A DNA stretch of 56,046 nucleotides from an uncultured Clostridium sp. (GTDB lineage: Bacteria; Bacillota; Clostridia; TANB77; CAG-508), in NCBI GenBank assembly GCA_947653375.1, contig CANTHA010000001.1, positions 1 to 56,046 on the forward strand, written 5' to 3'. Position 1 is the first letter of the stretch, and each line of letters starts with the position of its first letter. The notes under the pieces were generated by a model that was given only the letters and a program-made list of their open reading frames with translations, was not told the origin of the DNA and did not search any database. Below are positions 15,169 to 26,301 of the stretch, one piece after another. Both the position numbers and the translations under genes were made by a program.

Positions 15169-16053
15169 ATGAAAAATAGAAAAGGAATTATATTAGCAGG
15201 AGGAAGTGGAACAAGACTATATCCATTAACAATAGCAATATCAAAGCAAATAATGCCAGTGTATGATAAACCAATGATATATTATCCAATATCAGTTTTA
15301 ATGGAAGCAAATATAAAAGAAGTTTTAATCATATCAACACCAAGAGATATTGTAGTATTCAAAGAACTATTAGGAGATGGTTCACAATGGGGAATGCATT
15401 TTGAATACAAAATACAAGAAAAGCCAAATGGATTAGCAGAAGCATTTATAATAGGAGATGAATTTATAGGACAAGATAATGTTGCAATGATATTAGGTGA
15501 CAACATGTTTTATGGTTCTCATTTATCAGAAATATTAAAAAGAGCAAATGAAAGAGAAAACGAATCTACAATATTTGGTTATTATGTAAAAGATCCAAGA
15601 AGATATGGAGTAGTAGAAATAGACGAAAATGGAAAAGCAATATCAATAGAAGAAAAGCCAGAAGAACCAAAATCAAACTATGCGGTTCCTGGATTATATT
15701 TTTACACCAATGATGTAATAGAAATTGCTAAAAATACAAAGCCATCAGCAAGAGGAGAACTAGAAATAACATCTGTTAATGATGAATACATGAAAAGAGG
15801 AAAATTAACAGTTGAAAAATTAGGGAATGGAATGGCATGGTTTGATACAGGAACACATGATGCATTAATAGAAACAGCAAGTTTTGTACAAACAATAGAA
15901 AAAAGACAAGGAATTCAAGTATCATGTCCAGAAGAAATTGCTTACAAAAAAGGATGGATAACAGCAGAAGAATTATCAAAAATAGCAGATAAATACATGA
16001 AAACAGAATATGGACAATACTTAAAAGATTTAGCAACTAATAAAATAGTGTGA
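15169..16053 (+). CDS. rfbA: Glucose-1-phosphate thymidylyltransferase
   Basis: [31 protein letters not shown]...LGDN.FYG are canonical RmlA motifs. Confidence 0.95.
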
Positions 16054-16306
16054 CAAAGGGGTCGGGTTTATTTGTCACATTAATAATAAAAAAATATAAG
16101 TTTATATATAAAATATTAAAATTAAATTCATTGCTGGTCAGGTTAATCGTATAAATAATTTAGCACATTTCATAATTAGAAAATTTAGTCTATCTAACCT
16201 ATATGAATATTACCTTTCCAAACTGTGCGTCATTTATTTTAATATTTTATAGATAAACTAAATTAATTATCAAACTGTGACAAATAAGGGCGACCCCTTT
16301 GTCACA
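16049..16306 (+). mobile_element. MITE-like insertion between rfbA and rfbC: 31-nt GC-containing hairpin ends (28/31 inverted identity) around a divergent copy of the repeat-family core (16131-16231)
   Basis: tgtgacaaaggggtcgggtttatttgtcaca (16049-16079) against tgtgacaaataagggcgacccctttgtcaca (16276-16306). The internal sequence ttgctggtcaggttaatcgtataaa...acctttccaaactgtgcgtc matches the core of the other copies. Confidence 0.6.
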
Positions 16307-16327
16307 AAAGAGAAGGAGTGTTAATAA

Positions 16328-16912
16328 ATGGGAAAGTTTAAAAAGGTAGAGACTTCTATAGATGGAGTATATGTTATTGAACCAACGATTTTTGGAGATA
16401 GTAGAGGTTATTTTATGGAGACATATAGTAATACTGAATTTGCAGAAATTGGTTTAAATTATAATTTTGTACAAGATAATCAATCTAAATCTAGTAAAGG
16501 TGTTTTAAGAGGATTGCATTTTCAAAAAGAAAATACACAAGCTAAACTAGTTAGAGTAATTAAAGGTGAAGTTTTTGATGTAGCAGTAGATTTAAGACCT
16601 GGTAGTAAAACATATGGTAAATGGGAAGGTGTAATACTTTCTGAAGAAAACAAAAAAATGTTTATGATTCCTAGAGGTTTTGCACATGGATTTTTAGTAT
16701 TATCAGATGAAGCAGAATTTACGTATAAATGTGATGATATATATAATCATGAAGCAGAAGGTGGATTAGCATGGAATGACCCAGATGTAGCAATTGATTG
16801 GCCTTTAGGAGATATGAACGTAGAGGATTTATTGACATCTGAAAAAGATGCAAAATGGCCATCTTTAAAAGAATTAAAAGAAACAGATTTATTTCAAAAT
16901 TTAAAACAATGA
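16328..16912 (+). CDS. rfbC: dTDP-4-dehydrorhamnose 3,5-epimerase
   Basis: FGDSRGYFMETY...QDNQSKSSKGVLRGLHFQ...KLVRV.KGEVFDVAVDLR are RmlC hallmarks. Confidence 0.95.
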   Translation: MGKFKKVETSIDGVYVIEPTIFGDSRGYFMETYSNTEFAEIGLNYNFVQDNQSKSSKGVLRGLHFQKENTQAKLVRVIKGEVFDVAVDLRPGSKTYGKWEGVILSEENKKMFMIPRGFAHGFLVLSDEAEFTYKCDDIYNHEAEGGLAWNDPDVAIDWPLGDMNVEDLLTSEKDAKWPSLKELKETDLFQNLKQ

Positions 16913-22160: not shown

Positions 22161-22324
22161 AAAAGTTATAATATATATTAAAATAGTATAATTTACTTGT
22201 CAGACTAATCATATAAATAAGTTTAATAAATTTCAAATATAGAGAAGTTAATCTGGCTTATCTGTAATAATAAATGTCTTCCCAAACTGCGCATTATTCT
22301 ATTTTACTATATATTATAACTTTT
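22161..22324 (+). repeat. Repeat-family copy A (palindrome-capped element)
   Basis: 29-nt AT-only terminal inverted repeats (22161-22189 and 22296-22324, 27/29 complementary) around the core ...gtcagactaatcatataaataag...tgtcttcccaaactgcgcat. Confidence 0.8.
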
Positions 22325-24660: not shown

Positions 24661-25857
24661 ATGAAAGTTTTAGTTTTAAATTCAGGAAGTTCTTCATTAA
24701 AATATCAAGTAATTGATATGGAAAAAGAAGAAATGTTAGTTAAAGGATATTTTGAGAGAATCGGTCAGTCAAATTCTTTTTTAACCCATAAAGTTAATGG
24801 AGAGACACATAAATTTGAACATTATGCAAAAGACCATAAACAAGCTATAAAATTTGTATTATCAAGAATTATGAATAAGTATTATGGAGTTATTAAAGAT
24901 TTAGATGAATTAATAGGTATAGGACATAGAGTTGTACATGGAGGAGAAAAATTTTCTAAATCTGTTATTATAAATGATGAGGTTATTGAAGAAATAAAAA
25001 AATGTAGTGATTTAGCACCACTTCATAATCCAGCAGCAATTTTAGGGATTGAAGCATGTAAAAAAGTAGCTCCAAGTGTAAAAATGATAGCTGTCTTTGA
25101 TACAGCATTTCATCAAACAATATCACAAGAAAAATATATTTATCCAATACCATATGAATATTATGAAAAATATAAAATAAGAAAATATGGATTTCATGGA
25201 ACATCACATCAGTATGTTTCTAACAGAGTAGCTCAATTAATGAATAAGGATATAAAAGATTTAAAAATTGTAAGCTGTCATTTAGGTCAAGGAGCAAGTA
25301 TATGTGCAATAAAAGATGGTAAATCAGTTGAAAATAGTATGGGATTAACACCACTTGGAGGAATTTGTATGGGAACAAGAAGTGGAGATTTAGACCCATC
25401 AATTATTTCATATATTATGAAAAAAGAAAATTTGACATCAGATGAAATAGAAAATATATTAAATAAAAAATCAGGAGCATATGGGGTTTCAGGTATATCA
25501 GTGGATTTTAGAGATATTGAAGCAGAAATGAGAGCAGGAGATAAAAGAGCAAAATTGGCATTAGATGTGTTTCATGAAACAGTTGCATCATATATTGCAA
25601 AATGTGGAGTTGCTATGAATGGTATTGATGTTATAACTTTTGAAGCTGGTGTGGGTGAAAAAGGTCAAGATTCTAGGCAGGAAATTTGTGATAAATTAGA
25701 GTTTTTAGGTGTAAAACTGGATAAACAAAAAAACCAAGATACAAAAGATTTTGAAGCAGAGATTTCTTCAAAAGGTTCTAAAGTAAAAGTGTATGTTGTT
25801 CCAACAAATGAAGAGTTGATGATTGCAAAGGAAACAAAAAGATTATTGTCAATTTAA
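24661..25857 (+). CDS. ackA: Acetate kinase, paralog 1 (divergent C-terminal FTGG.GEN motif)
   Basis: MKVLVLNSGSSSLKYQ...HRVVHGG...FDTAFHQT...YGFHGTSH...MGTRSGDLDP. ITFEAGVGEKG replaces the usual FTGGxGEN. Confidence 0.88.
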   Translation: MKVLVLNSGSSSLKYQVIDMEKEEMLVKGYFERIGQSNSFLTHKVNGETHKFEHYAKDHKQAIKFVLSRIMNKYYGVIKDLDELIGIGHRVVHGGEKFSKSVIINDEVIEEIKKCSDLAPLHNPAAILGIEACKKVAPSVKMIAVFDTAFHQTISQEKYIYPIPYEYYEKYKIRKYGFHGTSHQYVSNRVAQLMNKDIKDLKIVSCHLGQGASICAIKDGKSVENSMGLTPLGGICMGTRSGDLDPSIISYIMKKENLTSDEIENILNKKSGAYGVSGISVDFRDIEAEMRAGDKRAKLALDVFHETVASYIAKCGVAMNGIDVITFEAGVGEKGQDSRQEICDKLEFLGVKLDKQKNQDTKDFEAEISSKGSKVKVYVVPTNEELMIAKETKRLLSI

Positions 25858-25879
25858 AAGTTAAAATATAGTTTAATTT

Positions 25880-26037
25880 AAAAGTTATAATATATGAAAA
25901 TATACTATTTGCTGGTCAGACTAATCATATAAGGAAGGTTGATAAATTTCAAATATGGAAAATTTAATCTAGCTTATCTATATTAACAAGTGTCTTCCCA
26001 AACTGTGCATAGTATATTTTACTATAATTATAATTTT
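25880..26037 (+). repeat. Repeat-family copy B
   Basis: aaaagttataatatatgaaaatatactat ... core ... atagtatattttactataattataatttt. Confidence 0.8.
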
Positions 26038-26053
26038 AAGATATAGTTAATTT

Positions 26054-26211
26054 AAAAGTTATAATATATTAAAATATACTATTTGCTGGTCAGACTAATC
26101 ATATAAATAAAATTGATAAATTTCAAATATAGAAGATTTAATCTAGCTTATCTATATTAAAAAGTGTCTTCCCAAACTGTGCATAGTATATTTTACTATA
26201 TTACAACTTTT
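26054..26211 (+). repeat. Repeat-family copy C (in tandem with B)
   Basis: aaaagttataatatattaaaatatactat ... core ... atagtatattttactatattacaactttt. The flank atatagtt(t)aattt is also duplicated. Confidence 0.8.
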
Positions 26212-26301
26212 AAATAAGATAAATATTATTAACTATTGACTAATGTACAATATAAATATTATACTTATAATATAAAAAAATAAAAAGAAAGGAAATTAGA
26301 A

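What the first reader, a model, noticed from the sequence alone, without database searches (positions are those of the whole stretch)
16049..16306. Divergent copy of the core, carried by different GC-containing hairpin ends, inserted inside the rml operon over the rfbA stop codon
**Seen directly.**
- The rfbA stop codon TGA (16051-16053) lies inside a 31-nt hairpin (16049-16079).
- The reverse complement of that hairpin (28/31) sits at 16276-16306, a few nt before the rfbC RBS.
- Between the two hairpins is AT-rich DNA plus a diverged core of the repeat family.
- These caps are unrelated to the AT-only caps of the other copies.

**Inference.** The same core is associated with two different terminal-repeat types. 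That argues the core itself is the selected or recognised part, either an RNA or a recombination or transposition site. The 258-bp insert also separates genes that are normally tightly coupled, so it may affect rfbC/rfbB expression.
Basis: partly seen in the sequence, partly recalled or inferred. Interest (0 to 1): 0.6.

Follow-up and report, generated by a model that had tools for sequence, protein, structure and literature searches.

The report
Hairpin-capped mobile repeat inside rml operon
The 258-bp insert between rfbA and rfbC is an old, vertically inherited, non-coding long-hairpin repeat. It combines transposase-type (REP-like) GC hairpins at its ends with a conserved folded core at its tip, which shows that this core travels with several unrelated kinds of ends.

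Summary
rfbA ends at TGA 16051-16053, inside a 31-nt hairpin (16049-16079). Its reverse complement (28/31) lies at 16276-16306, 5 nt before the rfbC ribosome-binding site. A real but diverged family core lies between them (CM 103 bits).

- **The GC hairpins.** They are a separate REP-like family. It has 20 copies here, five inverted doublets, and occurs in 10 of 121 species of the genus. In relative G132 the same hairpins flank a RAYT-like tyrosine transposase gene. Here only a truncated remnant of that gene survives, next to a doublet.
- **The junction in relatives.** It is 20-62 nt in ten relatives. The nearest relative, G065, carries the same composite at the same site, with rfbA's native stop 8 nt upstream. 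The stop-codon overlap here therefore comes from a later 18-nt deletion.
- **The core.** It belongs to an old, REP-capped lineage and is not a decayed copy of the local 56-copy burst. A six-pair long-range helix covaries across 58 copies and between the two orthologues. Core and hairpins are more conserved than fourfold-degenerate sites.
- **Other species.** The same core sits between other REP families, and the same caps enclose other cargo.

Function is unproven. It is probably co-transcribed within the rml mRNA.

The parts
15169..16053 (+). rfbA (glucose-1-phosphate thymidylyltransferase). The C-terminus ..NKIV* is derived, and its stop TGA (16051-16053) is supplied by the hairpin.
   Evidence: ORF list. 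Relatives end ..NK(F/Y)G(E/Q/N)E*. There is an 18-nt gap relative to orthologue G065.
16049..16079 (.). Left REP-like GC hairpin (family B, variant GGGTCGGGTTTA without the inner GC stem).
   Evidence: The same variant occurs at C49:791, C146:2588 and in G065. It is 29/31 identical to the G065 orthologue.
16080..16098 (.). Outer left AT-rich spacer. It pairs poorly and evolves fast.
   Evidence: 10/19 identical to G065.
16099..16125 (.). Inner left arm of the AT-only inverted repeat.
   Evidence: Inverted repeat I2, 27 nt at 93%. Collinear with the family arms in the alignment. Changes relative to G065 are mirrored in the right arm.
16126..16232 (+). Core module (the apex of the hairpin), in an old sub-lineage of the family.
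   Evidence: HMM E 3.4e-12. CM 103 bits. 90/107 identical to the G065 orthologue. Groups with G065 and other REP-capped copies.
16136..16143 (+). 5' half of the covarying long-range helix: GG (16136-16137) and AGGT (16140-16143).
   Evidence: Pairs with 16212-16219. Variants in other copies are AGAC/GTCT, GGAC/GTCC, GGAA/TTCC, GGGT/ACCC, GGGC/GCCC, GAGC/GCTC and GATT/AATC.
16212..16219 (+). 3' half of the helix: ACCT (16212-16215) and CC (16218-16219).
   Evidence: The G065 orthologue has GGGT/ACCC, a compensated change.
16233..16259 (.). Inner right arm of the AT-only inverted repeat.
   Evidence: Together with 16260-16275 it matches the spacer of the core-less B doublet at C146 (p 0.004).
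16260..16275 (.). Outer right AT-rich spacer.
   Evidence: 10/16 identical to G065.
16276..16306 (.). Right REP-like GC hairpin (family B, inverted, inner GGG/CCC stem intact).
   Evidence: Terminator-like only when read on the minus strand.
16312..16330 (+). rfbC ribosome-binding site GAAGGAG and start codon.
   Evidence: Sequence. ORF 16328-16912.

Best explanation
**What it is.** The insert is a relic of a non-coding, long-hairpin mobile element built from two repeat systems.
- **Ends.** They are an inverted doublet of a 31-nt REP-type hairpin (family B). This is the kind of single-strand hairpin that REP-associated tyrosine (Y1/HUH) transposases recognise.
- **Interior.** It consists of AT-rich inverted arms that carry, at the tip, the conserved ~107-nt core. 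That core also tips the ~56 AT-capped repeats of this genome.

**History.**
- The composite entered the short rfbA-rfbC gap in the common ancestor of this species and relative G065.
- It has been inherited vertically since then.
- In this lineage an 18-nt deletion removed rfbA's own stop, so translation now ends at the hairpin's TGA.
- The transposase that goes with family B is truncated here, so this copy is probably no longer mobile.

**What is inferred, not shown.**
- The element is transcribed as part of the rml mRNA. No promoter-like or terminator-like site lies on the sense strand, and the upstream hairpin lacks the terminator-like inner stem.
- It folds into a long stem that could be processed or could stabilise the flanking messages.
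- The core is under structural constraint as a single strand, either RNA or DNA.
- It is not settled whether the composite arrived as one unit or whether the core element landed inside a hairpin doublet that was already there.
For: **Two separate families**
- The 258-nt query hits about 25 core-only sites (69-75% identity) and about 15 hairpin-only sites (83-97%) in this genome.
- There are 20 B hairpins. Five form inverted doublets, all in the same arrangement.

**REP/RAYT link**
- B hairpins occur in 10 of 121 species of the genus. The reversed-pattern control gives 0.
- In G132 inverted B hairpins flank a 253-aa gene. It matches NF047646 'REP-associated tyrosine transposase' (E 9e-20) and Pfam Y1_Tnp above its cut-off.
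- In this genome C146 carries tgt, a B doublet and only the C-terminal half of that gene.

**The core**
- 57 loci match the family. The finding's copy scores 103 bits.
- Helix covariation: 95.5% of cells paired; 36 double-change cells against 10.9 in shuffles; 0 of 500 shuffles reach this.

**History at this locus**
- The junction is 20-62 nt in ten relatives.
- G065 is nearest at rfbA and rfbC (90-91% aa). It has the same composite at the same site, with its native stop intact.
- Identity to G065: core 90/107 and hairpins 55/62, against 107/149 at fourfold-degenerate sites (p 0.015 and 0.005).
- Changes in the helix and in the arms are compensated between the two orthologues.

**The composite once had several copies**
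- The spacers at C146 and C49 match the composite's arm (p 0.001-0.004).

**The pattern is general in the genus**
- Core-1 lies between other REP families in G133, G136, G128 and G101.
- In G065 B doublets enclose three different cargo families. Four observed against 0.015 expected by chance gives P 2e-9.
Against: - There is no direct evidence of mobility or transcription.
- The RAYT-like proteins score below NCBIfam's curated cut-off (60-72 bits against 80).
- No target-site duplication was recognisable.
- The arms are AT-rich and of low complexity. Their similarity to the canonical family arms is not significant on its own (p 0.2-0.4).
- The constraint tests rest on about 100 sites, and strong AT codon bias affects fourfold-degenerate sites.
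- Concerted change of the two arms could come from gene conversion within a palindrome and not from selection.
- The genome is a 166-contig MAG, so copies at contig ends are missed.
Confidence: 0.72

Rival explanations
1. Two-step nesting at this site. A B-hairpin doublet (a short REPIN) was first inserted between rfbA and rfbC. A palindromic core element then landed in the centre of its AT-rich spacer. On this view REP doublets are preferred landing sites for such elements.
For: - Removing 16099-16259 leaves a 97-nt doublet with a 35-nt spacer. That is within the range of core-less doublets, 18-82 nt.
- In G065 cargo families 2 and 3 mostly occur without B caps, in 11 of 13 and 10 of 11 copies. 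When capped, they sit centrally, with residual spacers of 16+13 and 29+29 nt.
- The association is far beyond chance (P 2e-9).
- From the literature as I recall it, REP sequences are documented hot spots for IS insertion (IS1397; Tobes and Pareja 2006).
Against: - The core-less doublets at C146 and C49 carry the composite's arm.
- The G133 doublets form a deletion series, 209, 164, 139, 108, 65 and 60 nt. Short doublets can therefore derive from long composites and need not be their precursors.
- Both species that have the element already have the full composite, so the order of events at this locus cannot be observed.
Confidence: 0.3
2. A domesticated cis-acting RNA element of the rml operon. 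The long stem is cleaved (for example by RNase III), which uncouples the rfbA and rfbC messages, leaves protective hairpins on both, and releases the core as a small RNA.
For: - The element has been retained since the split from G065. Core and hairpins are more conserved than fourfold-degenerate sites.
- In G065 this is the only core copy detected. Its survival there is not explained by proliferation.
- Helix changes are compensated.
- No sense-strand promoter or terminator is found.
- The upstream hairpin lacks its terminator-like inner stem in both species.
- Family copies point toward the downstream gene 29:0.
Against: - There are no transcript data.
- Ten relatives manage with a 20-62 nt junction.
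- The core is readily deleted from paralogous copies in G133.
- Orientation is equally well explained by replication strand: 50 of 52 copies lie on the G-rich strand.
- There is no Rfam match.
Confidence: 0.25
3. An invertible switch (inverton). The core, flanked by 27-nt and 31-nt inverted repeats, flips to turn downstream rml genes on or off.
For: - Inverted repeats flank a ~107-nt segment in a surface-polysaccharide operon.
- Canonical copies carry a conserved promoter-like TTGAAA-17-TATGAT on the minus strand.
- In G133 the core lies in either orientation relative to the same asymmetric outer frame (L383 against L384).
Against: - Orientation is uniform at 29 co-directional loci. It is also the same in this genome, in G065 and in the independent assembly.
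- The promoter-like motif is degraded in this copy.
- Promoter-like hits are no more frequent than in shuffles.
- No invertase gene lies nearby.
Confidence: 0.05
4. The GC hairpins are ordinary intrinsic terminators or attenuators of rfbA that are conserved in the lineage.
For: The intact form of the hairpin (GGGGTCGCCC followed by T6) looks terminator-like. Single copies often follow stop codons.
Against: - Ten of fourteen relatives have no hairpin at this junction.
- On the sense strand neither hairpin meets the terminator scan. The only hit is on the minus strand.
- The sense-strand upstream hairpin lacks the inner GC stem and has no T run.
- The hairpins are dispersed repeats that flank a transposase gene.
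Confidence: 0.03

Closest known systems
REP / REPIN - RAYT systems (Pseudomonas, E. coli; Bertels and Rainey 2011, PMC3116915; Bertels et al. 2017, PMC5581495)
   Same: - Short palindromic extragenic repeats, in tens of copies.
- Fixed inverted doublets that form a larger hairpin.
- A Y1 transposase gene flanked by the same repeats.
- Largely vertical persistence.
- Loss of the transposase leaves a decaying repeat population.
   Different: - The host is a 26% GC gut Clostridium.
- Copy number is low (16-20).
- Spacers are heterogeneous and can hold 150-225 nt of other palindromic repeats, including a conserved folded core.
- The transposases carry a C-terminal extension and score below the NCBIfam equivalog cut-off.
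- Six hairpins overlap stop codons.
BIMEs of E. coli, especially BIME-1/RIP elements (two inverted REPs around a conserved central motif with an IHF site); from my own knowledge
   Same: A mosaic architecture: inverted REP hairpins separated by another conserved, non-REP module, located between co-transcribed genes.
   Different: - There is no sequence relationship.
- The central module here is far larger and is itself a palindromic repeat that also exists without REP caps.
- No binding protein is known.
Palindromic MITEs such as Correia elements (Neisseria), ERIC, and bcr1 of the Bacillus cereus group; from my own knowledge
   Same: - 150-250-bp non-coding repeats with long inverted ends.
- Intergenic, co-transcribed and hairpin-forming.
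- Copy-number bursts that differ between related genomes.
   Different: - In this family the ends vary while the asymmetric core and its helix are conserved.
- No target duplication and no parent IS were found.
- Orientation bias is near absolute.
IS elements that target REP sequences (IS1397/ISKpn1, IS110-family; Tobes and Pareja 2006); from my own knowledge
   Same: REP structures act as preferred sites where other mobile DNA ends up.
   Different: Here the guests are non-coding palindromic repeats, and they lie between two REPs and not inside one REP loop.

Membership tests
REP/REPIN-RAYT system (for the GC hairpins) | Short imperfect palindrome repeated many times, mostly extragenic | tested here: met
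   20 copies in this genome and 5-16 exact copies in six other species, with a control of 0. All lie between genes or at gene ends.
REP/REPIN-RAYT system (for the GC hairpins) | Inverted doublets in a fixed arrangement that fold into a larger hairpin | tested here: met
   Five doublets here, all in the same left-type ... right-type arrangement. More are found in G065, G132, G092 and G052.
REP/REPIN-RAYT system (for the GC hairpins) | A RAYT gene (Y1 HUH transposase) flanked by the same repeats | tested here: inconclusive
   - Met in relative G132: L356 has a 253-aa ORF between inverted B hairpins. It matches PF01797 at 49.5 bits (cut-off 23) and NF047646 at 71 bits (cut-off 80).
- In this genome only a truncated C-terminal remnant lies beside the C146 doublet.
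REP/REPIN-RAYT system (for the GC hairpins) | The transposase binds and cleaves the hairpin as single-stranded DNA | not testable with these tools
   This needs biochemistry.
Palindromic MITE (for arms plus core) | Small, non-coding, with terminal inverted repeats, in many copies | tested here: met
   57 loci, with arms visible. The only ORFs in the core are 7-24 codons long and their frames differ between copies (read from the sequences).
Palindromic MITE (for arms plus core) | Target-site duplication and a parent IS with the same ends | tested here: not met
   No consistent duplication is visible at the ends. No transposase gene lies next to partial copies.
IS200/IS605-derived PATE | Similar subterminal hairpins at both ends on the same strand, with no inverted terminal repeats | tested here: not met
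   The two hairpins are reverse complements of each other, and the whole element is one long inverted repeat.
Intrinsic terminator | GC-rich stem followed by a T run on the transcribed strand | tested here: not met
   No plus-strand site in 15950-16400. The only hit is on the minus strand.
Inverton | Both orientations present at one locus, with a promoter inside and a recombinase | tested here: inconclusive
   - One orientation is seen in this genome, in L309 and in G065.
- The family ratio is 29:0.
- Reads could not be examined.
Any Rfam family | Covariance-model match | tested here: not met
   No hit at gathering score on the window. Nothing meaningful at E<=10 on 15990-16360 or 25780-26300.

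The most novel reading that the evidence does not exclude
The ~107-nt core would be a functional folded module, either an RNA released from long stems or a single-stranded DNA structure. It rides at the tip of hairpin elements whose ends are interchangeable: several unrelated REP families, each with its own RAYT-type transposase, and AT-only arms. On this reading the REPIN-like elements of this genus are vehicles with swappable cargo, and the core is kept by selection in its own right. At the rml junction it would be a domesticated operon-internal element.
Probability: 0.3. Interest if true: 0.75.

Novelty: new variant of a known kind. Interest (0 to 1): 0.52.

Why it matters
- REPIN-RAYT systems have been studied almost only in Proteobacteria, and their spacers are usually treated as passive.
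- In a genus of small, AT-rich gut Clostridia, REP doublets from several families enclose exchangeable palindromic cargo. One cargo has a conserved, covarying fold.
- Short doublets appear to arise when the tip is deleted.
- One composite has sat inside a surface-sugar (dTDP-rhamnose) operon since before two species split. It has even rewritten the end of rfbA.
- This gives a concrete, testable case for two questions: whether such repeats are only tolerated or are used by the host, and how REP populations are born and decay.

Tried and rejected
- **Gapped pattern scan of genome contigs** (TTTGTCACA-N35-65-TGCTGGTCAG). It gave 91 hits in unrelated phyla, about the number expected by chance. It was uninformative.
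- **Exact right-type B hairpin in genome contigs**. No hits, because the loop differs between species. The looser stem-only pattern in the genus worked.
- **Metagenome scan with RfbA**. The best hit was 87% identical and truncated, so no strain-level empty or filled sites were obtained.
No read-level test of transcription, excision or inversion was possible.
- **ViennaRNA alifold on the first alignment** gave almost no structure on the plus strand. The helix emerged with the curated alignment.
- **Scan of all column pairs for further covarying helices**. Only the one long-range helix was consistent.
- **Similarity of the finding's arms to the canonical family arms** is not significant on its own. 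I therefore do not claim homology of the arms from sequence alone.
- **Simple nesting as the whole story.** I first favoured this, then weakened it after the G133 deletion series and the C146/C49 arm match.
- **IS200-like TnpA on C95 as the mobiliser.** No family hits lie near it.
- **Separating gene direction from replication direction** as the cause of the orientation bias failed. The two are confounded on short contigs.

Full report
**1. Observation**

- rfbA is the ORF 15169-16053, and its TGA (16051-16053) lies inside 16049-16079.
- The repeat finder gives arms 16049-16079 and 16276-16306, 31 nt at 28/31. It also gives a second, inner AT-only inverted repeat, 16099-16125 / 16233-16259, at 25/27.
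- Each GC arm is itself a palindrome, TGTGACAAA-N13-TTTGTCACA, and folds far better than shuffles.
- The whole 276-nt stretch folds into one long hairpin with z = -8.1.
- The right hairpin ends 5 nt before GAAGGAG, and ATG follows at 16328.
- An independent Logan assembly (L309) is identical across the region.

**2. The genome and its repeat families**

The window is contig 1 of a 1.53-Mb, 25.7% GC, 166-contig MAG. Its nearest named relative at rfbA is an 'uncultured Clostridium sp.' MAG.

Searching the genome with the 258 nt splits the query into two independent sets:
- about 25 sites match only positions ~57-203, the core, at 69-75% identity;
- about 15 sites match only the terminal 31-45 nt, at 83-97% identity.

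**3. Family B, the GC hairpins**

- There are 20 copies, allowing up to one mismatch per stem.
- Five form inverted doublets: the finding, C29:8580-8662, C29:12100-12213, C64:2009-2097 and C146:2588-2695. The other four have spacers of 21-52 nt.
- All five doublets have the same left-type ... right-type arrangement. The four whose flanking genes are clear (the finding, C29:12100-12213, C64 and C146) lie between co-directional genes, close to or abutting the upstream gene's stop at one end and the downstream Shine-Dalgarno sequence at the other.
- In six cases the hairpin's TGTGA supplies the TGA stop of the upstream gene.
- The stem pattern occurs in 10 of 121 species of the genus: own 16, G065 16, G132 10, G092 7, G127 7, G023 6, G052 5. 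The reversed control gives 0 everywhere.
- In G132 two inverted B hairpins flank an 810-nt segment next to tgt. It encodes a 253-aa protein whose best NCBIfam match is 'REP-associated tyrosine transposase' (E 9e-20, 71 bits, cut-off 80). It also matches Pfam Y1_Tnp above the cut-off.
- In this genome the orthologous place (C146) holds tgt, a B doublet and only the C-terminal half of that gene.
- The genome has two more RAYT-like genes (C3, C11) and one IS200-type TnpA (C95).
  - The C11 gene is flanked by a third hairpin family with more than 70 copies, TTGCCAATYAAACCCGGAACCAGTGGCAA.
  - The C3 gene has a fourth hairpin family on one side, TGAGACG...CGTCTCA, with 9 copies.

I therefore read family B as a REP/REPIN-type population whose own transposase has decayed in this genome.

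**4. The core family**

- An HMM finds 57 loci.
- Canonical copies read AAGTTTCGAY-T5...AAAAGTTATAATATATAKTAAAAT, then the core, then the inverted arms.
- The finding's copy aligns collinearly from arm to arm, with the B hairpins where the others have AAGTTTCGA half-palindromes. Only the core is statistically secure, however.
- A covariance model built from 32 copies finds the core in 14 of 121 species of the genus. It is multi-copy in G052, G005, G059, G127, G136 and G133.
- A long-range helix is supported on 58 distinct copies. It pairs GG..NNNN with NNNN..CC, which is 16136-16143 with 16212-16219 in the window.
  - 95.5% of cells are paired.
  - There are 36 double-change cells against 10.9 in shuffles, and 0 of 500 shuffles reach this.
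  - Slid controls pair at only 35-70%.
  - At least eight Watson-Crick variants occur.
- No other consistent helix was found, and there is no Rfam match.
- Orientation is strongly biased.
  - Between co-directional genes the core points with them 29:0 (p 4e-9).
  - It lies on the locally G-rich strand in 50 of 52 copies.
  - The two readings are confounded. The second would fit transposition through single-stranded DNA on the lagging-strand template, as known for Y1 transposases (my knowledge of Ton-Hoang et al. 2010).

**5. History at the rml junction**

- Among 14 relatives with rfbA next to rfbC, ten have 20-62 nt between the genes.
- The other four junctions are larger:
  - one is 168 nt of AT-rich DNA;
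  - one holds four family-C-like hairpins;
  - L030 holds a family-D doublet, whose TGA again ends rfbA;
  - this genome has 277 nt.
- The junction is thus a recurrent landing place, and the hairpins are not a conserved terminator.
- The model search then found G065, the closest relative at rfbA and rfbC (90.4% and 91.2% aa). It carries the same B-capped composite at the same junction.
- In G065 rfbA ends ..KFGEE-TAA-TAA, 8 nt before the hairpin. This genome lacks 18 nt there, so the frame runs into the hairpin's TGA. The overlap with the stop codon is therefore secondary.
- Identity between the two orthologues:

| Segment | Identical / compared | Comparison with fourfold sites |
|---|---|---|
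| Core | 90/107 | p 0.015 |
| Hairpins | 55/62 | p 0.005 |
| Inner arms | 41/53 | not significant (p 0.28) |
| Outer spacers | 20/35 | lower, p 0.07 |
| Fourfold-degenerate sites of rfbA + rfbC | 107/149 | reference |

- The helix differs by a compensated pair: AGGT/ACCT here, GGGT/ACCC in G065.
- A one-base difference in the inner arm is mirrored in the other arm.
- In a tree of cores, this copy groups with G065 and with REP-capped copies of G133, G136 and G128. It does not group with the local burst.

**6. Caps and cargo are interchangeable across the genus**

- **Core-1 with other caps.** It is flanked by inverted GC hairpins of other families in G101, G133, G136 and G128, and by canonical AAGTTTCGG arms in G127. 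The G133 hairpin has 68 copies.
- **B caps with other cargo.** In G065 four of five B doublets enclose cargo:
  - core-1;
  - two copies of a second palindromic family, which has at least 13 copies in G065;
  - one copy of a third family, which has at least 11 copies.
  
  Most copies of the second and third families have no B caps. Chance predicts 0.015 such cases (P 2e-9).
- **Deletion series in G133.** Doublets with the same caps form series of 209, 202, 164, 139, 108, 65 and 60 nt for core-1, in either orientation. For another cargo the series is 218, 147, 87 and 78 nt. The tip is progressively lost and a single arm is kept.
- **Remnants in this genome.** The core-less B doublet at C146 and the single hairpin at C49 carry a spacer that matches the composite's arm from the hairpin foot inward (p 0.001-0.004). 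The B-capped composite therefore once existed at several loci.

**7. Model**

Shown:
- The insert is a mosaic of a REP-type doublet and a member of the core family.
- It is orthologous in two species.
- It is more conserved than synonymous sites.
- It carries a covarying helix.

Inferred:
- It moved as single-stranded hairpin DNA through a RAYT-type enzyme, and it is now stranded because that gene is truncated.
- It is transcribed with the operon. The sense strand has no promoter-like or terminator-like site, and the upstream hairpin lacks the terminator-like inner stem in both species.
- Its long stem may be processed or may stabilise the neighbouring messages.

Open:
- Whether it arrived as a unit or by nesting in place.
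- Whether the core works as RNA or as DNA.

**8. Comparison with known systems and novelty**

- The hairpins pass most REPIN/RAYT criteria. RAYTs in Clostridia are mentioned only at the protein level (PMC5581495).
- The architecture resembles E. coli BIME-1/RIP mosaics and REP-targeted insertions.
- The core element resembles Correia/ERIC/bcr1-type repeats. Unlike them, its core is conserved while its ends vary.
- The new points here are the REP/RAYT link, the orthologous retention, the exchange of caps and cargo, and the deletion series.

Noticed in passing
L112 (G000:C11:15488-16393) and many intergenic sites genome-wide: A third hairpin family, TTGCCAATYAAACCCGGAACCAGTGGCAA, has more than 70 copies. 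It flanks a RAYT-like gene that lies between dnaB and tilS. Pairs of these hairpins often enclose 80-250-nt AT-rich palindromes, some with family-A-type arms but no core (for example C3:15513-15631).
   Followed up: partly
L111 (G000:C3:25176-26082); L030:3870-4003: A fourth hairpin family, TGAGACG..CGTCTCA, has 9 copies, often preceded by AATTCGACAAAAA. It lies beside a second RAYT-like gene. In relative L030 a doublet of this family fills the same rfbA-rfbC junction and also supplies rfbA's TGA stop.
   Followed up: partly
G000:C146:2588-3053 (not in the window): This contig carries tgt, a B-hairpin doublet, and a truncated RAYT-like gene with only the C-terminal 117 aa. In G132 (L356) the orthologous place holds the intact 253-aa gene between inverted B hairpins.
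   Followed up: yes
L377-L393 (G133): A REP-like hairpin (GGGGACGGNNCTTTTTG, 68 copies) forms doublets whose interiors make two deletion series from ~215 nt down to ~60-80 nt. This suggests that short REP doublets arise when the tip of a longer cargo-bearing hairpin is lost.
   Followed up: partly
L350, L352, L351 (G065): Two further palindromic repeat families have at least 13 and at least 11 copies in G065. One has the core TTGCAACTCCCAAC..CAGTCTGTAAATTCTTAACAGACTG.. Both occur mostly uncapped, but occasionally sit exactly between B hairpins at stop/Shine-Dalgarno junctions.
   Followed up: partly
L122:1336-1501 (G019): In this relative the rfbA-rfbC junction (164 nt) is filled by four family-C-like hairpins, three direct and one inverted. 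This is a third independent filling of the same junction.
   Followed up: no
window 22208-22236 (minus strand) and the equivalent position in other canonical copies: A conserved promoter-like TTGAAA-17-TATGAT points away from the downstream gene. The two hexamers coincide with conserved blocks of the core (ATCATA and TTTCAA on the plus strand), and the spacer between them varies.
   Followed up: partly
G000:C19:14890-14934 (not in the window): AAGTTTCGAC-TTTTTAAAATGATTAGTTTATAC-AAAAGTCGAAACTT: the outer caps of the canonical family with only part of one arm between them. It looks like a footprint left after the inner hairpin and core were lost.
   Followed up: no
window 25863-26220: Two canonical family units lie in tandem between the two ackA paralogues. 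Tandem pairs or triplets also occur on C56, C102 and C5 and in G052 (L324).
   Followed up: no
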